A stretch of 64,000 bases of DNA, from NCBI GenBank assembly GCA_964474825.1, contig CAYYWQ010000001.1:613609-677608 (forward strand), written 5' to 3'. How positions within the stretch are numbered: the first letter of the stretch is position 1; each line of letters opens with the position of its first letter. Below, in pieces: positions 35,933 through 37,770 of this stretch. A program made the translations under genes and the position numbers. The stretch is from an uncultured Candidatus Saccharibacteria bacterium (GTDB lineage Bacteria > Patescibacteriota > Doudnabacteria > UBA920). The notes below the pieces were generated by a model. That model searched no databases and was not told the origin of the DNA. It was given only the letters and a program-made list of their open reading frames with translations.

Positions 35933-36045
35933 TGAAATAAAACAATGGGGAGGAGCCATTGTCGTTTGTAGATAGTATCACATGTTACGCGATAATGCTC
36001 TAAAACAGCAGTGACTCACTCCCCAAATTGCGATGATAGCTCTGA

Positions 36046-36243
36046 CTAGGGAACGACGTTCCCCGATGTTTGAAAATTCTGGAAATCCCAGAAATCGCCC
36101 AACTCGGCCATGTATCCCGAAGTGGCACGGGCTAGTACGACAGGTCTCGCGTCGCCATTCGGCTCGCGATAGGAATCCACGGTTTTGCGAGAGCTGGCAA
36201 TGCCAGACTCCGCGTTATCAGAACGGCTTTCATCTTTTTTCAT
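36046..36243 (-). CDS. candidate small protein (65 aa) with strong Shine-Dalgarno, inside the ORF-poor region
   Basis: ATG at 36243 preceded by AAGGGGAGGACT; MKKDESRSDNAESGIASSRKTVDSYREPNGDARPVVLARATSGYMAELGDFWDFQNFQTSGNVVP; downstream hairpin CAATGGctcctccCCATTG plus T-rich run on the minus strand; GC-rich codons. Confidence 0.3.
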   Translation of the reverse strand: MKKDESRSDNAESGIASSRKTVDSYREPNGDARPVVLARATSGYMAELGDFWDFQNFQTSGNVVP

Positions 36244-36671
36244 AGTCCTCCCCTTTCGGGTTTTGAATCGGTGCGATACCTCATGCACCTAAAATTTGTT
36301 CAGATATATTCAGAGCAAATTTTAGAAACACGAGATTTAAAAAACCTCCACCGCTTAGGTGGAGGTTTGAAAGTTTGTAAGTTTACTCTATTACAAAACT
36401 CTTCCTCTGCCCAAGCGGCAAGAAGCTAATAATAACGACTACAATAGCGAGGATGGAATTATGTAATTTCATACTTTTAAAGTATATTAAAGGGAAACAA
36501 AAATTGTGTCAAGATGGAAAAATTGGGGAAAACAGCGGCCGGAAGGAAATCGCTGTTCGACAATGAGTTCGGTGGGAATTTCCTAAAAGGAAAAGATTCC
36601 CCATTATTGTGTCGAACGAACGATCTCCCCCGGCCCGGACGACTAGCGCCTGATCAACGCGCTAGCTTTTA

Positions 36672-36842
36672 CTACCCAGCATACGCTTCCTCAAGCGAGA
36701 TTCCGAGCTTCCTGATTCCAGGAGCTCTTATCTTGGGACGTCGGACAGTCTCCTCAGCATTGTTCTTGTGCTGGTTGACAGCCGGCGCCCGGTCTTGACC
36801 CACCTGCGCGGGCTCCTTCGCTTGACAAGCGGCAATCTGCAT
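36672..36842 (-). CDS. candidate small protein (~56 aa) with strong Shine-Dalgarno, inside the ORF-poor region
   Basis: ATG at about 36842 preceded by GCAGGAGGCAAAAAT (GGAGG 8 nt upstream); MQIAACQAKEPAQVGQDRAPAVNQHKNNAEETVRRPKIRAPGIRKLGISLEEAYAG; coordinates approximate. Confidence 0.2.
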   Translation of the reverse strand: MQIAACQAKEPAQVGQDRAPAVNQHKNNAEETVRRPKIRAPGIRKLGISLEEAYAG

Positions 36843-37770
36843 ATTTTTGCCTCCTGCGAACCGCCAAAATCTCTGGCGGTATTTTTACTTCTCTTCCACA
36901 AGGATAGAACTTTGGACTTACAGTCCTAGAGGTTCTTCCCAAGGCCGTCATTCAGACGAACGACGGTTTTTGGTGACTGGCAGCCACCAAAGATTGGAGA
37001 GTAATCAAAATTTCCCATAGGAAACTTTTTTTTCGGCTACCGGTTGGCAGCTATAGATTACCCGTTCCGGGACGGCGGGAACGCGGAATACTCACGCGCT
37101 CTGCGGAAATTTTGGCAAAAGCGTTCTGTCAAAAACTTCGCATTTATTCCTCCCCAATGAGGAACAAAACCGCCAGAATTGGACGGGTGGCAGGGTTTAT
37201 TCATACCTGCGAGAGAAAGAATGCTATAAAGATGATTGCAAACTGCAGGTCTCATCCTTATTCTTTTTGCGCTGCGAACAGCGTCTCTCAGGAAGTTCAC
37301 GATGGTTATCGAACTTTCCCCACCCTAGGGCTGCGGAGCCCTTTACCTTTGAACATACCTAAAGTAAAAACAATTTTATCTGAAACTCAGATAGTAAAAG
37401 ATCTAGTCTTCTAAAATTGTTTACACCTTGGTTCTGCTCATAAAGCTTGGCCTTAACCTGAGTATGGCCAAATTTTACGAGCAGAATGTTTTTTAAAAAA
37501 CACTTATTGACCCCGTCATCCGACGGGGTTGTTAGCCTATGGCTAACAAAAATCCCGCCTACTTGCGGGGTTAGTGGTTGTTATTTAGATCAATATCTAT
37601 TTAACTTTTACCTAACCCCACTGTCCCTGCCCAAAAGTAGCCCTTAACAAAGAGGCTAACGAGGGTAACAATAGAGTTGTGGCTATGTTGATTCATTGAT
37701 TTTCTTTAACTGCCTAAAGTATATACCTGCGCCCAAAGCGTTGTCAAATAGGGTTTTCCACAAAAAATTT

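What the first reader, a model, noticed from the sequence alone, without database searches (positions are those of the whole stretch)
35940..37770. A 1.8 kb ORF-poor, GC-elevated, hairpin-dense region in an otherwise densely coding genome
Coding density elsewhere in the window is above 90%, with gene spacings of 0-100 nt. Here about 1.8 kb lacks any credible ORF: track ORFs overlap in every frame and have no motifs. GC rises to roughly 50-55% locally against about 40% for the host. The region contains many stable stem-loops, several followed by U-runs on the plus strand (36341-36379, 36857-36886, 36944-36975), three consecutive hairpins at 37511-37580, and a 15-nt AT palindrome at 36471-36485. 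Two short ORFs with strong GGAGG Shine-Dalgarno sequences (36046-36243 and about 36672-36842, minus strand) are embedded in it. It could be one or several novel structured ncRNAs, since large ornate RNAs of the GOLLD/ROOL type are often found next to tRNAs, or it could be a decayed integrated element.
Basis: seen in the sequence. Interest (0 to 1): 0.7.

Follow-up and report, generated by a model that had tools for sequence, protein, structure and literature searches.

The report
Leader-peptide attenuator plus structured small-gene island
The "empty" 1.9 kb between parB and tRNA-Pro in this Candidatus Doudnabacteria genome is not one giant RNA: it holds a row of tiny transcription units on the parB strand, led by a conserved, previously undescribed leader-peptide transcription attenuator that feeds into a very highly folded, fast-evolving RNA carrying small ORFs.

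Summary
Between tRNA-Pro (35738-35811, +) and parB (37771-38709, -) there is no long ORF and no Pfam or Rfam match, and folding is far stronger than in the flanking genes. GC is only mildly raised (0.452 vs 0.424). The features are organised on the minus strand.

1. A near-consensus promoter, a 31-codon ORF (37601-37696), an internal hairpin followed by UUUGG, and alternative antiterminator and terminator structures. This module follows parB in 32 related Doudnabacteria loci. The ORF never carries a stop, yet shows no codon periodicity, and the antiterminator co-varies with the terminator. I read it as a ribosome-mediated attenuator.
2. A ~970-nt RNA (36525-37490, MFE z = -15 on minus vs -7.7 on plus). 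Its 5' hairpin/junction module and 3' long hairpin recur in a few relatives. It embeds an orphan 56-codon ORF.
3. A 29-codon hydrophobic ORF with its own promoter and terminator, conserved in six relatives.
4. An orphan 65-codon ORF with gene-like codon usage.
5. A repeat of the tRNA-Pro 3' end.

Relatives carry different small ORFs here, so this is a hypervariable small-gene island and not a GOLLD/ROOL-type RNA. The stall signal and the function of the payload are unknown.

The parts
37718..37762 (-). Promoter of the leader unit: -35 TTGACA (37747-37742), 18-nt spacer, -10 TATACT (37723-37718). A TGTGGAAAA element (37754-37762, one mismatch from a DnaA box) sits 6 nt upstream of the -35.
   Evidence: The promoter scores >=9/12 in 31 of 32 related loci. 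A TGTGGAWAA-like element lies 5-7 nt upstream of the -35 in about half of them. Binding by DnaA is inference only: such boxes occur at chance frequency in the window.
37601..37696 (-). sORF-A, a 31-codon leader ORF (MNQHSHNSIVTLVSLFVKGYFWAGTVGLGKS).
   Evidence: Found directly downstream of parB in 32 distinct loci. The ATG is invariant. There are 0 stops in 704 frame-0 codons, against 42 and 53 in the other two frames. There is no codon periodicity: entropy is 1.25/1.26/1.21 at the three positions, and third positions are invariant in the core.
37631..37658 (-). Hairpin P1 inside sORF-A (UAGCCU...GGGCUA, 37638-37658), followed by the conserved UUUUGG (37631-37636). Proposed to be a pause hairpin.
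   Evidence: The hairpin is predicted in about 30 of 32 homologues, with different stem sequences such as GGUC/GGCC, ACGCU/AGCGU and CGCUC/GAGCG. Mean dG is -11.4 and mean z is -2.0. The pause role is inference.
37611..37622 (-). Antiterminator 5' strand (AGUGGGGUUAGG), lying in the last codons of sORF-A.
   Evidence: It pairs with CCACUAACCCCGC (37565-37577) at dG -18.0, z -3.9. Across 29 loci the mean is -14.8 kcal/mol with z -2.8. Cognate pairs beat non-cognate pairs (-14.8 vs -11.4 kcal/mol, permutation p = 5e-5).
37548..37577 (-). Antiterminator 3' strand overlapping the intrinsic terminator: CCCGC-AAGUAG-GCGGG (37554-37569) plus a U-run.
37494..37548 (-). Two further hairpins. One spans 37532-37548. 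The other is CCCCGUC..GACGGGG at 37511-37528, followed by a U-run. They may be back-up terminators.
   Evidence: Read from the sequence. z = -5.5 to -7.5.
37356..37486 (-). 5' module of the downstream RNA: a 21-bp hairpin H3 (37432-37486) followed by a multi-stem junction.
   Evidence: Homologous modules occur in L087 (1826-1952) and L006 (7420-7549). The consensus fold has 52 pairs, 10 of them with compensatory changes. The G.U pairs work only on the minus strand. In L006 the module precedes a 67-codon zinc-ribbon ORF.
36525..37490 (-). 'Unit 2': a ~970-nt highly structured transcript. It is either an mRNA with a long structured UTR or a non-coding RNA.
   Evidence: MFE is -381.5 kcal/mol, z = -15.3 on the minus strand, against -344.4, z = -7.7 on the plus strand. 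In 25 of 30 related loci the parB strand folds better (Wilcoxon p = 2.7e-5).
36672..36842 (-). 56-codon ORF with GGAGG 8 nt upstream of the ATG. Coding status is uncertain.
   Evidence: No homologue among 5.8 billion proteins. The codon score of 0.10 is intermediate between coding (0.45) and off-frame (-0.46), and GC3 is 0.61. Folding z is about -1.4 here, close to coding sequence.
36527..36635 (-). Long 3' hairpin (~100 nt) followed by a U-rich tract. Its basal stem sequence GCCGGRRGGARAUC / GAUUUCCUUCCGGC is conserved.
   Evidence: 36 nt are 97% identical in L087, and the element is also present in L083, L092 and L097. MFE is -40 to -53 kcal/mol and z is -4.8 to -8.7 in all five loci.
36336..36512 (-). 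sORF-B unit.
- Promoter: TTGACA-17-TAATAT (36484-36512).
- ORF: 29 codons, hydrophobic (36383-36472, MKLHNSILAIVVVIISFLPLGQRKSFVIE).
- Terminator: 36342-36368 plus U6.
   Evidence: Homologues with consensus MNYLTxQIIxxLxLVVGVVVNIGKKGRLE occur in L003, L006, L089, L090, L092 and L097, always on the parB strand between sORF-A and tRNA-Pro. HMM E-values run from 1e-8 to 1e-19, and the window copy scores 8e-10.
36280..36334 (-). Long imperfect hairpin directly after the sORF-B terminator. This parallels H3 after the sORF-A terminator.
   Evidence: I4. z = -3.7.
36046..36243 (-). 65-codon ORF with GGAGG upstream. Probably a real orphan gene.
   Evidence: Its codon score of 0.447 equals the mean for the window's genes (0.448). 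GC3 is 0.58 against 0.41 +/- 0.04 for host genes. It has no homologue and no Pfam match. A terminator-like hairpin lies at 35941-35963.
35882..35928 (+). Second copy of the tRNA-Pro 3' end (15 nt exact) plus a terminator-like hairpin. Resembles an att site.
   Evidence: (D1): 2 matches against 0.17 expected.
35738..35811 (+). tRNA-Pro(GGG), the conserved far boundary of the island.
   Evidence: It lies 670-1900 nt beyond sORF-A in 28 related loci, in either orientation.

Best explanation
The interval is a lineage-specific island of very small transcription units, all read from the parB strand.

Unit 1 is a ribosome-mediated transcription attenuator. A strong promoter drives a 31-codon leader ORF with little or no untranslated leader. 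A hairpin inside the ORF followed by UUUGG probably pauses RNA polymerase until a ribosome arrives.

The last codons and stop region of the ORF are complementary to the 5' arm of the downstream intrinsic terminator, so they can form an antiterminator.
- A ribosome that reaches the stop codon covers this segment. The terminator then forms and transcription ends.
- A ribosome stalled earlier in the ORF leaves the segment free. The antiterminator forms and transcription reads through.

Read-through enters unit 2, a ~970-nt exceptionally folded RNA. It begins with a conserved long hairpin and junction and ends in a conserved ~100-nt hairpin terminator. In relatives it carries small ORFs (zinc-ribbon or coiled-coil), and here it carries an orphan 56-codon ORF.

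Two further units follow. One is a conserved 29-codon hydrophobic peptide gene with its own promoter and terminator. The other is an orphan 65-codon gene. The island ends at tRNA-Pro, where a duplicated tRNA 3' end marks past integration or recombination.

Shown: the anatomy, the conservation, ORF maintenance, the alternative pairings and their co-variation, and the strand bias. Inferred: pausing, ribosome control, the inducing signal (translation stress is my guess) and what the payload does.
For: Organism and synteny. The genome is Ca. Doudnabacteria, and the order tRNA-Leu, parB, gap, tRNA-Pro is conserved.

Leader unit.
- The promoter is conserved in 31 of 32 loci.
- The ORF is open in all 32: 0 of 704 codons are stops, against 42 and 53 stops in the other frames.
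- There is no codon periodicity, and third positions are invariant in the core. This fits translation without selection on the protein, plus RNA-level constraint.
- The internal hairpin has variable stems.
- Antiterminator pairing averages -14.8 kcal/mol with z -2.8 and always lies from -29 to +17 nt of the stop codon.
- Cognate pairings beat non-cognate ones, p = 5e-5.
- Host genes generally lack an SD (6 of 40), so the absence of one before the leader ORF is normal here.

Payload.
- z = -15.3 on minus against -7.7 on plus.
- The strand bias holds in 25 of 30 loci.
- The 5' module shows compensatory changes and minus-only G.U pairs, and in L006 it precedes a zinc-ribbon ORF.
- The 3' hairpin is conserved.
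- Small-ORF families are shared among relatives.

Other units. sORF-B forms a family. The 65-codon ORF has gene-like codon usage.
Against: - There are no expression data.
- The leader has no run of regulatory codons, so the stall signal is unknown.
- The window has two extra hairpins after the first terminator, which complicates read-through.
- A separate promoter for unit 2 cannot be excluded.
- The regulated cargo is not conserved, which is unusual for an attenuator.
- The 56-codon ORF has ambiguous codon usage and no homologue. The equivalent ~1 kb in L087 has no credible ORF, so in this sub-clade the payload could be non-coding.
- ORF maintenance was ascertained partly through an ORF-based search, although every syntenic locus of the clade with sequence available had the ORF.
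- Shuffle controls for the duplex test were mononucleotide shuffles.
- The sORF-B codon pattern is inconclusive: entropy 0.58/0.38/0.44 from 6 sequences.
Confidence: 0.55

Rival explanations
1. Unit 2 (36525-37490, minus strand), possibly together with the leader, is a new large structured non-coding RNA of Doudnabacteria. On this reading the embedded 56-codon ORF is fortuitous.
For: - MFE z = -15.3 with strong strand asymmetry.
- The 5' junction module and 3' hairpin are conserved and show compensatory changes.
- The L087 homologue has ~1 kb without a credible ORF.
- The 56-codon ORF has an intermediate codon score and no homologue.
- Every related locus keeps at least 500 nt of highly folded sequence here.
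Against: - The interior of ~680 nt cannot be aligned even between the loci that share both ends.
- Other relatives carry real, shared small protein genes at this position.
- There is no Rfam match.
- Strong hairpins are common in all spacers of this genome.
- The ORF zone is less folded than its surroundings.
Confidence: 0.2
2. The region is mainly debris and cargo of mobile elements that repeatedly integrated at tRNA-Pro. It would be a recombination hot spot with no coherent function.
For: - A 15-nt exact repeat of the tRNA-Pro 3' end, with its own hairpin.
- Partial tRNA-Pro duplications in relatives and variable tRNA orientation.
- GC3 of 0.58-0.61 against 0.41 for host genes.
- Orphan ORFs.
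- SD-bearing ORFs in a genome that hardly uses SD.
- Selfish genes in relatives' gaps: DUF559, GIY-YIG and 23S_rRNA_IVP.
- Two independent Logan contigs both break inside tRNA-Pro at window position 35780.
Against: - The window has no integrase, transposase or other mobility gene.
- The att-like repeats bracket only 83 nt.
- There is no similarity to phage records or viral contigs.
- sORF-A, the 5' and 3' modules and sORF-B are syntenic and vertically conserved across the clade.
- No pseudogene remnants were found.
Confidence: 0.15
3. The small units are type I toxin-antitoxin-like modules. sORF-B, and perhaps other ORFs, would be a membrane toxin whose highly structured mRNA is controlled by antisense or cis RNA.
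For: - sORF-B is a 29-34 residue hydrophobic peptide with a basic tail and its own promoter and terminator, and it is conserved in 7 loci.
- The flanking RNAs are long and highly folded.
- Plus-strand terminator-like hairpins at 36860-36880 and ~36946-36975 could end antisense RNAs.
Against: - No convincing antisense promoter or transcript was identified.
- The 56- and 65-codon products are hydrophilic.
- sORF-B matches no family in Pfam. PADLOC was not searched.
- Toxicity has not been tested.
Confidence: 0.1

Closest known systems
Ribosome-mediated transcription attenuators: the trpL, hisL and pheL leaders of Proteobacteria, and leader-peptide attenuators of resistance genes such as bmrB-bmrCD (from general knowledge)
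   Same: A promoter-proximal short ORF, an internal hairpin followed by a U-rich site, mutually exclusive antiterminator and terminator structures with the antiterminator strand at the ORF's end, and an intrinsic terminator before the regulated RNA. Rfam's Trp_leader model gives a sub-threshold hit exactly here (37545-37655, minus strand, 17 bits, E = 4.4).
   Different: There is no run of cognate regulatory codons. It occurs in a Patescibacteria lineage. The cargo is not a biosynthetic operon but a hypervariable, highly folded RNA with tiny ORFs. It is not a member of any Rfam leader family.
GOLLD, ROOL, OLE, HEARO and raiA large structured bacterial RNAs
   Same: A long, GC-enriched, ORF-poor, strongly folded stretch next to a tRNA gene.
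   Different: No covariance-model match at E<=10. Conservation is limited to the ends. Relatives carry protein-coding small ORFs in the interior.
Type I toxin mRNAs (hok, ldr, tisB, fst, aapA classes)
   Same: A short hydrophobic ORF (sORF-B) with its own promoter and terminator, embedded among long stable RNA structures.
   Different: No antisense RNA was identified, there is no sequence similarity to known toxins, and toxicity is unknown.
tRNA-linked genomic islands and integration hot spots
   Same: A duplicated tRNA 3' end, atypical composition, orphan genes, and variable content between relatives.
   Different: There is no integrase. The repeats enclose only 83 nt. The island is bounded by vertically conserved regulatory modules.
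REP/BIME-type intergenic palindromes
   Same: This genome places stable hairpins in most spacers, including a repeated ~65-nt family in the ribosomal-protein operon.
   Different: The hairpins of this region have no other copy in the 64-kb window.

Membership tests
Known Rfam RNA families (GOLLD, ROOL, HEARO, OLE, RNase P, tmRNA, SRP, 6S, group I/II introns, riboswitches) | A covariance-model match at or near the family's gathering score | tested here: not met
   Only tRNA passes. The best other hits in 35550-37850 score 14-34 bits, far below gathering. The same holds for 14 related loci. ARAGORN finds no tmRNA.
SRP RNA | A helix-8 motif with a GGAA tetraloop and symmetric loop, inside a long helix, on the transcribed strand | tested here: not met
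   The CCGGAAGGAA string at 36540-36549 is on the plus strand. On the better-folding minus strand it forms the basal stem of a long terminator hairpin. There is no SRP model hit.
Ribosome-mediated (leader-peptide) transcription attenuator | A short ORF close to the promoter, kept open across relatives | tested here: met
   The ATG is invariant. There are 0 stops in 704 frame-0 codons against 42 and 53 in the other frames, across 32 loci. The -10 box lies 7-58 nt from the ATG.
Ribosome-mediated (leader-peptide) transcription attenuator | An intrinsic terminator after the ORF, and an alternative antiterminator that uses the terminator's 5' arm and overlaps the end of the ORF | tested here: met
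   A terminator was found in 29 of 32 loci. Antiterminator pairing averages -14.8 kcal/mol with z -2.8, positioned -29 to +17 nt from the stop codon. Its co-variation with the terminator gives p = 5e-5.
Ribosome-mediated (leader-peptide) transcription attenuator | Regulatory codons or an arrest motif that define the signal | tested here: inconclusive
   There are no codon runs. The conserved core (P-x-F-x-K-x-V-x-W) coincides with an RNA hairpin, so peptide and RNA constraints cannot be separated.
Ribosome-mediated (leader-peptide) transcription attenuator | A co-oriented downstream gene whose expression depends on read-through | not testable with these tools
   Co-oriented RNA and small ORFs follow in all loci, but transcription could not be measured.
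Type I toxin-antitoxin | A small hydrophobic toxin plus an overlapping or complementary antisense RNA | tested here: inconclusive
   A hydrophobic 29-codon ORF is present and conserved. No antisense unit was identified.
tRNA-integrated mobile element | An integrase, plus direct repeats of the tRNA 3' end bracketing the element | tested here: not met
   No integrase domain in any frame. The only repeat pair, 35799-35813 and 35882-35896, brackets 83 nt.
Chromosomal replication origin (oriC) | A cluster of DnaA boxes, an AT-rich unwinding element, and a switch in GC skew and gene orientation | tested here: not met
   GC skew is negative across the whole window with no switch. DnaA-box-like sites occur at chance level, 14 against 14.2 expected. 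Genes on both outer sides are on the minus strand.
Pseudogene | Translated similarity to a protein family or to neighbours' proteins, interrupted by frameshifts or stops | tested here: not met
   Pfam on six frames gives nothing. tblastn and tblastx against relatives' gap ORFs return only the conserved hairpin.

The most novel reading that the evidence does not exclude
The ~1-kb minus-strand transcript (36525-37490) and its counterparts in L087 and other loci form a new class of large, highly folded RNA in Doudnabacteria. Its synthesis would be gated by a dedicated leader-peptide attenuator, and the small ORFs would be secondary passengers. That would make it an RNA-based function under translation-sensing control in an ultra-small genome.
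Probability: 0.15. Interest if true: 0.75.

Novelty: new variant of a known kind. Interest (0 to 1): 0.5.

Why it matters
- To my knowledge, and in the searchable literature, no leader-peptide attenuator has been described in Patescibacteria/CPR. A clade-wide conserved one would imply transcription-translation coupling and translation-sensing regulation in these reduced, uncultivated bacteria.
- A streamlined ~1.2-Mb genome keeps 0.7-2.4 kb of very highly folded, rapidly changing sequence with unannotated tiny genes at a fixed chromosomal site. That points to a niche for small proteins or RNAs that gene callers miss.
- In practice, the 31- and 29-codon ORFs and the attenuator appear to be unannotated: the gene calls on the identical Logan contigs list only the 56-, 65- and 42-residue ORFs here. 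The attenuator gives a well-defined RNA family to model and to test in vitro.

Tried and rejected
- Rfam at gathering and permissive thresholds, on the window and on 14 related loci. Only tRNAs were found.
- Pfam on all six frames and on every candidate small ORF. No family reached its gathering cut-off; the only hits were a few sub-threshold ones to relatives' ORFs.
- Homologue search for the 65- and 56-codon ORFs among 5.8 billion proteins. Only self-hits. Each cluster has a single member.
- oriC. Rejected on GC skew, gene orientation and DnaA-box counts. No parS site.
- SRP RNA, suggested by CCGGAAGGAA. Rejected: wrong strand, the motif lies in a stem, and there is no model hit.
- A tRNA interrupted by a group I intron, as reported for Patescibacteria (PMC13011429). 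No intron model hit at E<=10 and no split tRNA halves seen.
- Phage or plasmid-like origin. No blastn match to 50,697 phage records, and the conserved 3' hairpin is absent from viral contigs.
- Pseudogene remnants of relatives' cargo ORFs. None found.
- Homology of the 65-codon ORF with the 65-codon ORF at the same position in L097. A short shared stretch lies upstream of the start codon (GTATCGCAC ... ATGAAAAAA), but there is no significant protein alignment. Left open.
- A column-based covariation count for the leader. The MAFFT alignment (A5) mis-registers the stems, so I used per-sequence duplex energies with cognate versus non-cognate permutation instead.
- A search for closer relatives. 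The best ParB identity in the GTDB representatives and JGI metagenomes is 80-84%, too distant to align the interior.
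Full report
**Context.** ParB (37771-38709, minus strand) is 60-84% identical to ParB of Candidatus Doudnabacteria and other Patescibacteria MAGs. The exact proteins sit on a 1.21-Mb NCBI contig and on two Logan contigs.

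The local gene order is:
- a liv-type ABC transporter operon on the plus strand, ending at 35604;
- tRNA-Pro(GGG), 35738-35811, plus strand;
- a 1.96-kb gap;
- parB, minus strand;
- tRNA-Leu(CAA);
- bacA and glyA, minus strand.

**Checking the observation.**
- *ORFs.* The gap has no long ORF with coding character, and no Pfam domain in any frame.
- *Folding.* Folding is much stronger than in the flanks. For 120-nt windows the mean z is about -2.5 inside the gap, against -0.2 to -0.4 in neighbouring genes (p ~ 1e-8).
- *GC.* The rise is modest overall: 0.452 against 0.424, and one in ten equal-sized windows is as high. The core 36521-37320 reaches 0.50, with a 0.55 peak.
- *The GGAGG-preceded ORFs.* Both exist. 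But GGAGG occurs at chance frequency in the window, and only 6 of 40 host genes have any SD-like motif. The motif is therefore unusual for this host and not a reliable gene signal.
- *Hairpins elsewhere.* Stable hairpins occupy most intergenic spacers of this genome, including a repeated ~65-nt family in the ribosomal-protein operon. What is unusual here is the length of the structured stretch, not the presence of hairpins.

**What it is not.**
- *Known RNA families.* Rfam finds only tRNA, at gathering scores and at E<=10, in the window and in 14 related loci.
- *Replication origin.* GC skew does not switch, and DnaA-box-like sites are at chance level.
- *Pseudogene.* No remnant was found.
- *Phage or viral sequence.* No similarity.
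- *SRP RNA.* The SRP-like string CCGGAAGGAA lies on the non-favoured strand, inside a stem.

**Comparative anatomy.** I collected 160 loci around parB homologues. In the clade closest to the window, tRNA-Pro lies 80 bp to 2.4 kb beyond parB, in either orientation. The interval is ORF-poor everywhere. Nucleotide similarity to the window is confined to short blocks.

**Unit 1, a leader-peptide attenuator.** Reading the sequence downstream of parB in all loci revealed a conserved module on the parB strand.
- *Promoter.* It is near-consensus: TTGACA-18-TATACT in the window, 37747-37718, and >=9/12 in 31 of 32 loci. Often a TGTGGAWAA element lies 5-7 nt upstream of the -35.
- *ORF.* An invariant ATG follows 7-58 nt later and opens a 22-35 codon ORF (window 37696-37601). 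A profile of these peptides finds one copy per locus, always after parB, and nowhere else in ~1.3 Mb of collected sequence.
- *ORF maintenance.* Frame 0 has 0 stops in 704 codons. Frames 1 and 2 have 42 and 53.
- *No protein-type selection.* Substitution shows no codon periodicity (entropy 1.25/1.26/1.21). The most conserved positions include third positions: UUU..AAG and nUU UGG. These nucleotides form a hairpin whose stem differs between loci (GGUC/GGCC, ACGCU/AGCGU, CGCUC/GAGCG and others), followed by UUUGG.
- *Terminator and antiterminator.* An intrinsic terminator lies 20-50 nt beyond the stop codon in 29 loci. The segment around the stop codon (-29 to +17 nt) is complementary to the terminator's 5' arm plus the preceding ACCAAA. 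Mean duplex energy is -14.8 kcal/mol, z = -2.8 against shuffles.
- *Co-variation.* Each locus's segment pairs better with its own terminator than with those of other loci (-14.8 vs -11.4 kcal/mol; median rank 2 of 29; permutation p = 5e-5).

An ORF that must stay open, whose sequence evolves like RNA, and whose end overlaps an antiterminator competing with a terminator, has the design of a ribosome-mediated attenuator. Because host genes are largely SD-less, the lack of an SD before the leader ORF is not an objection. The pausing role of the hairpin plus UUUGG, and the nature of the stall signal, are inferences.

**Unit 2, the long folded RNA.** Directly after the terminators, nearly all loci have a long hairpin.
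- *5' module.* In the window (37486-37356), L087 and L006 this hairpin and a following multi-stem junction are homologous. The consensus fold has 52 pairs, 10 with compensatory changes. The G.U pairs are possible only on the minus strand.
- *3' end.* A ~100-nt hairpin followed by a U-rich tract (36635-36527) has a basal stem that is 97% identical over 36 nt in L087. It recurs in L083, L092 and L097, and its apical part varies.
- *Whole stretch.* 36525-37490 folds at -381.5 kcal/mol (z = -15.3) on the minus strand, against -344.4 (z = -7.7) on the plus strand. The parB strand is the better folder in 25 of 30 loci (p = 2.7e-5).
- *Interior.* About 680 nt cannot be aligned between loci.
- *Cargo in relatives.* Relatives carry small ORFs here, and some form families shared between loci: zinc-ribbon proteins, a family of 72-109 residues and another of 83-108 residues. 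In L006 the same 5' module precedes a 67-codon zinc-ribbon ORF.
- *Cargo in the window.* The window has an orphan 56-codon ORF (36842-36672) with an ambiguous codon score of 0.10. L087 has no credible ORF.

I therefore favour a structured mRNA with variable small cargo, but a non-coding function in this sub-clade is not excluded.

**Units 3 and 4.**
- *Unit 3.* A TTGACA-17-TAATAT promoter (36512-36484) precedes a 29-codon hydrophobic ORF (36472-36383) and a strong terminator (36368-36342 plus U6). Homologous peptides (MNYLTxQIIxxLxLVVGVVVNIGKKGRLE) occur at the same relative position in six loci. Codon-level evidence is inconclusive.
- *Unit 4.* After another long hairpin (36334-36280), the 65-codon ORF (36243-36046) has codon usage indistinguishable from the window's genes (0.447 vs 0.448) but an atypical GC3 (0.58 vs 0.41). 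It has no homologue.

**The tRNA-Pro end of the island.**
- The tRNA's last 15 nt, with a terminator-like hairpin, are repeated 83 nt downstream.
- Relatives show partial tRNA-Pro duplications and both orientations of the tRNA.
- Their gaps also hold DUF559, GIY-YIG and 23S_rRNA_IVP genes.
- Both Logan contigs break inside tRNA-Pro.

This supports a recombination hot spot that supplies the variable cargo. It does not support the idea that the whole interval is a decayed element.

**Verdict.** A giant known-type RNA is not supported. New structured RNA elements are supported, and the best defined is a clade-wide leader-peptide attenuator.

I rate the composite explanation at 0.55. The attenuator part alone I would put at about 0.7, and the nature of the payload at about 0.5. 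Interest is moderate: a new family of a classical mechanism in an unexpected lineage, coupled to an unexplained, extremely folded, fast-evolving RNA and small-ORF island.

Noticed in passing
window 4709-4776, 5212-5292, 8087-8160, 8876-8950, 11336-11418, 11752-11831, 13039-13114, 14492-14560 (minus strand); also a TAGCTGGT match at 24040: Nearly every spacer of the ribosomal-protein operon carries a copy of one ~65-nt hairpin family: ...AGUAGGAAGUAGUCAGUAGCUUGUAGGAAACUGCAUGGCUAC..CUACCAGCUAC..., ending 10-15 nt before the next start codon. Predicted dG is -25 to -33 kcal/mol. There are eight TAGCTGGT matches on the plus strand. It looks like a genome-specific intergenic repeat, or a processing or translation element.
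   Followed up: partly
window 34810-34862 and 35612-35664: A 53-nt direct repeat at 91% identity (..GUCAUCCCGACCGAAGGCGAGUGCAUCCGAGUAUGAGCGGAGGGAUCCC..) lies in the spacers on either side of the last ABC-transporter gene. A similar stretch is present in L094.
   Followed up: no
window-wide (40 gene starts): Only 6 of 40 genes have any SD-like motif upstream, and most starts are preceded by A/U-rich sequence. The organism seems to initiate translation largely without SD, yet the small ORFs of the island, and those in relatives, carry strong GGAGG-type motifs.
   Followed up: partly
L001 and L002 (Logan contigs, identical to window 35780-~46900 and 35780-~41300): Two independent assemblies, SRR14271372 and SRR14271365, both end at window position 35780, inside tRNA-Pro. 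This suggests the flanks differ between co-occurring strains at this point.
   Followed up: no
related loci L003-L028 and L083-L110: tRNA-Pro lies on the parB strand in some loci and on the opposite strand in others (17 vs 11). Extra partial tRNA-Pro copies occur in L018, L028 and L092. Both point to repeated inversion or integration at this tRNA.
   Followed up: partly
L003 7021-7377; L013 6985-7356 and L005; L097 ~2935-3175 (minus strand): Selfish or mobile-type small genes are inserted in the same interval in relatives: DUF559 endonuclease-like (E = 1.5e-32), 23S rRNA-intervening-sequence protein (1.2e-15) and GIY-YIG (2.4e-18). Where such a gene sits between parB and the leader, the leader module is simply displaced downstream.
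   Followed up: partly
window 38841-38924: ARAGORN finds tRNA-Leu(CAA), but the Rfam gathering-threshold scan of the whole window did not report it. The orthologous tRNA-Leu was reported in relatives. This is probably a filter miss on a long-variable-arm tRNA.
   Followed up: no
window 37821-37829 (+) and 37754-37762 (-): A perfect DnaA-box sequence, TGTGGATAA, lies inside the 3' end of parB. It forms an inverted pair with the TGTGGAAAA element upstream of the leader promoter (I14). The significance is unknown, since box counts in the window are at chance.
   Followed up: partly
window 36860-36880 and ~36946-36975 (+): Two hairpins have U-runs on the plus strand, antisense to the region just upstream of the 56-codon ORF. 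They could end antisense transcripts, or they could simply be A-tract-flanked hairpins of the minus-strand RNA.
   Followed up: no
window 36260-36300 vs L097 2560-2600: The stretch upstream of the window's 65-codon ORF shares a short sequence (GTATCGCAC..CAAA..AGGG..ATGAAAAAA) with the stretch upstream of a 65-codon ORF at the same position in L097. The proteins do not align.
   Followed up: partly
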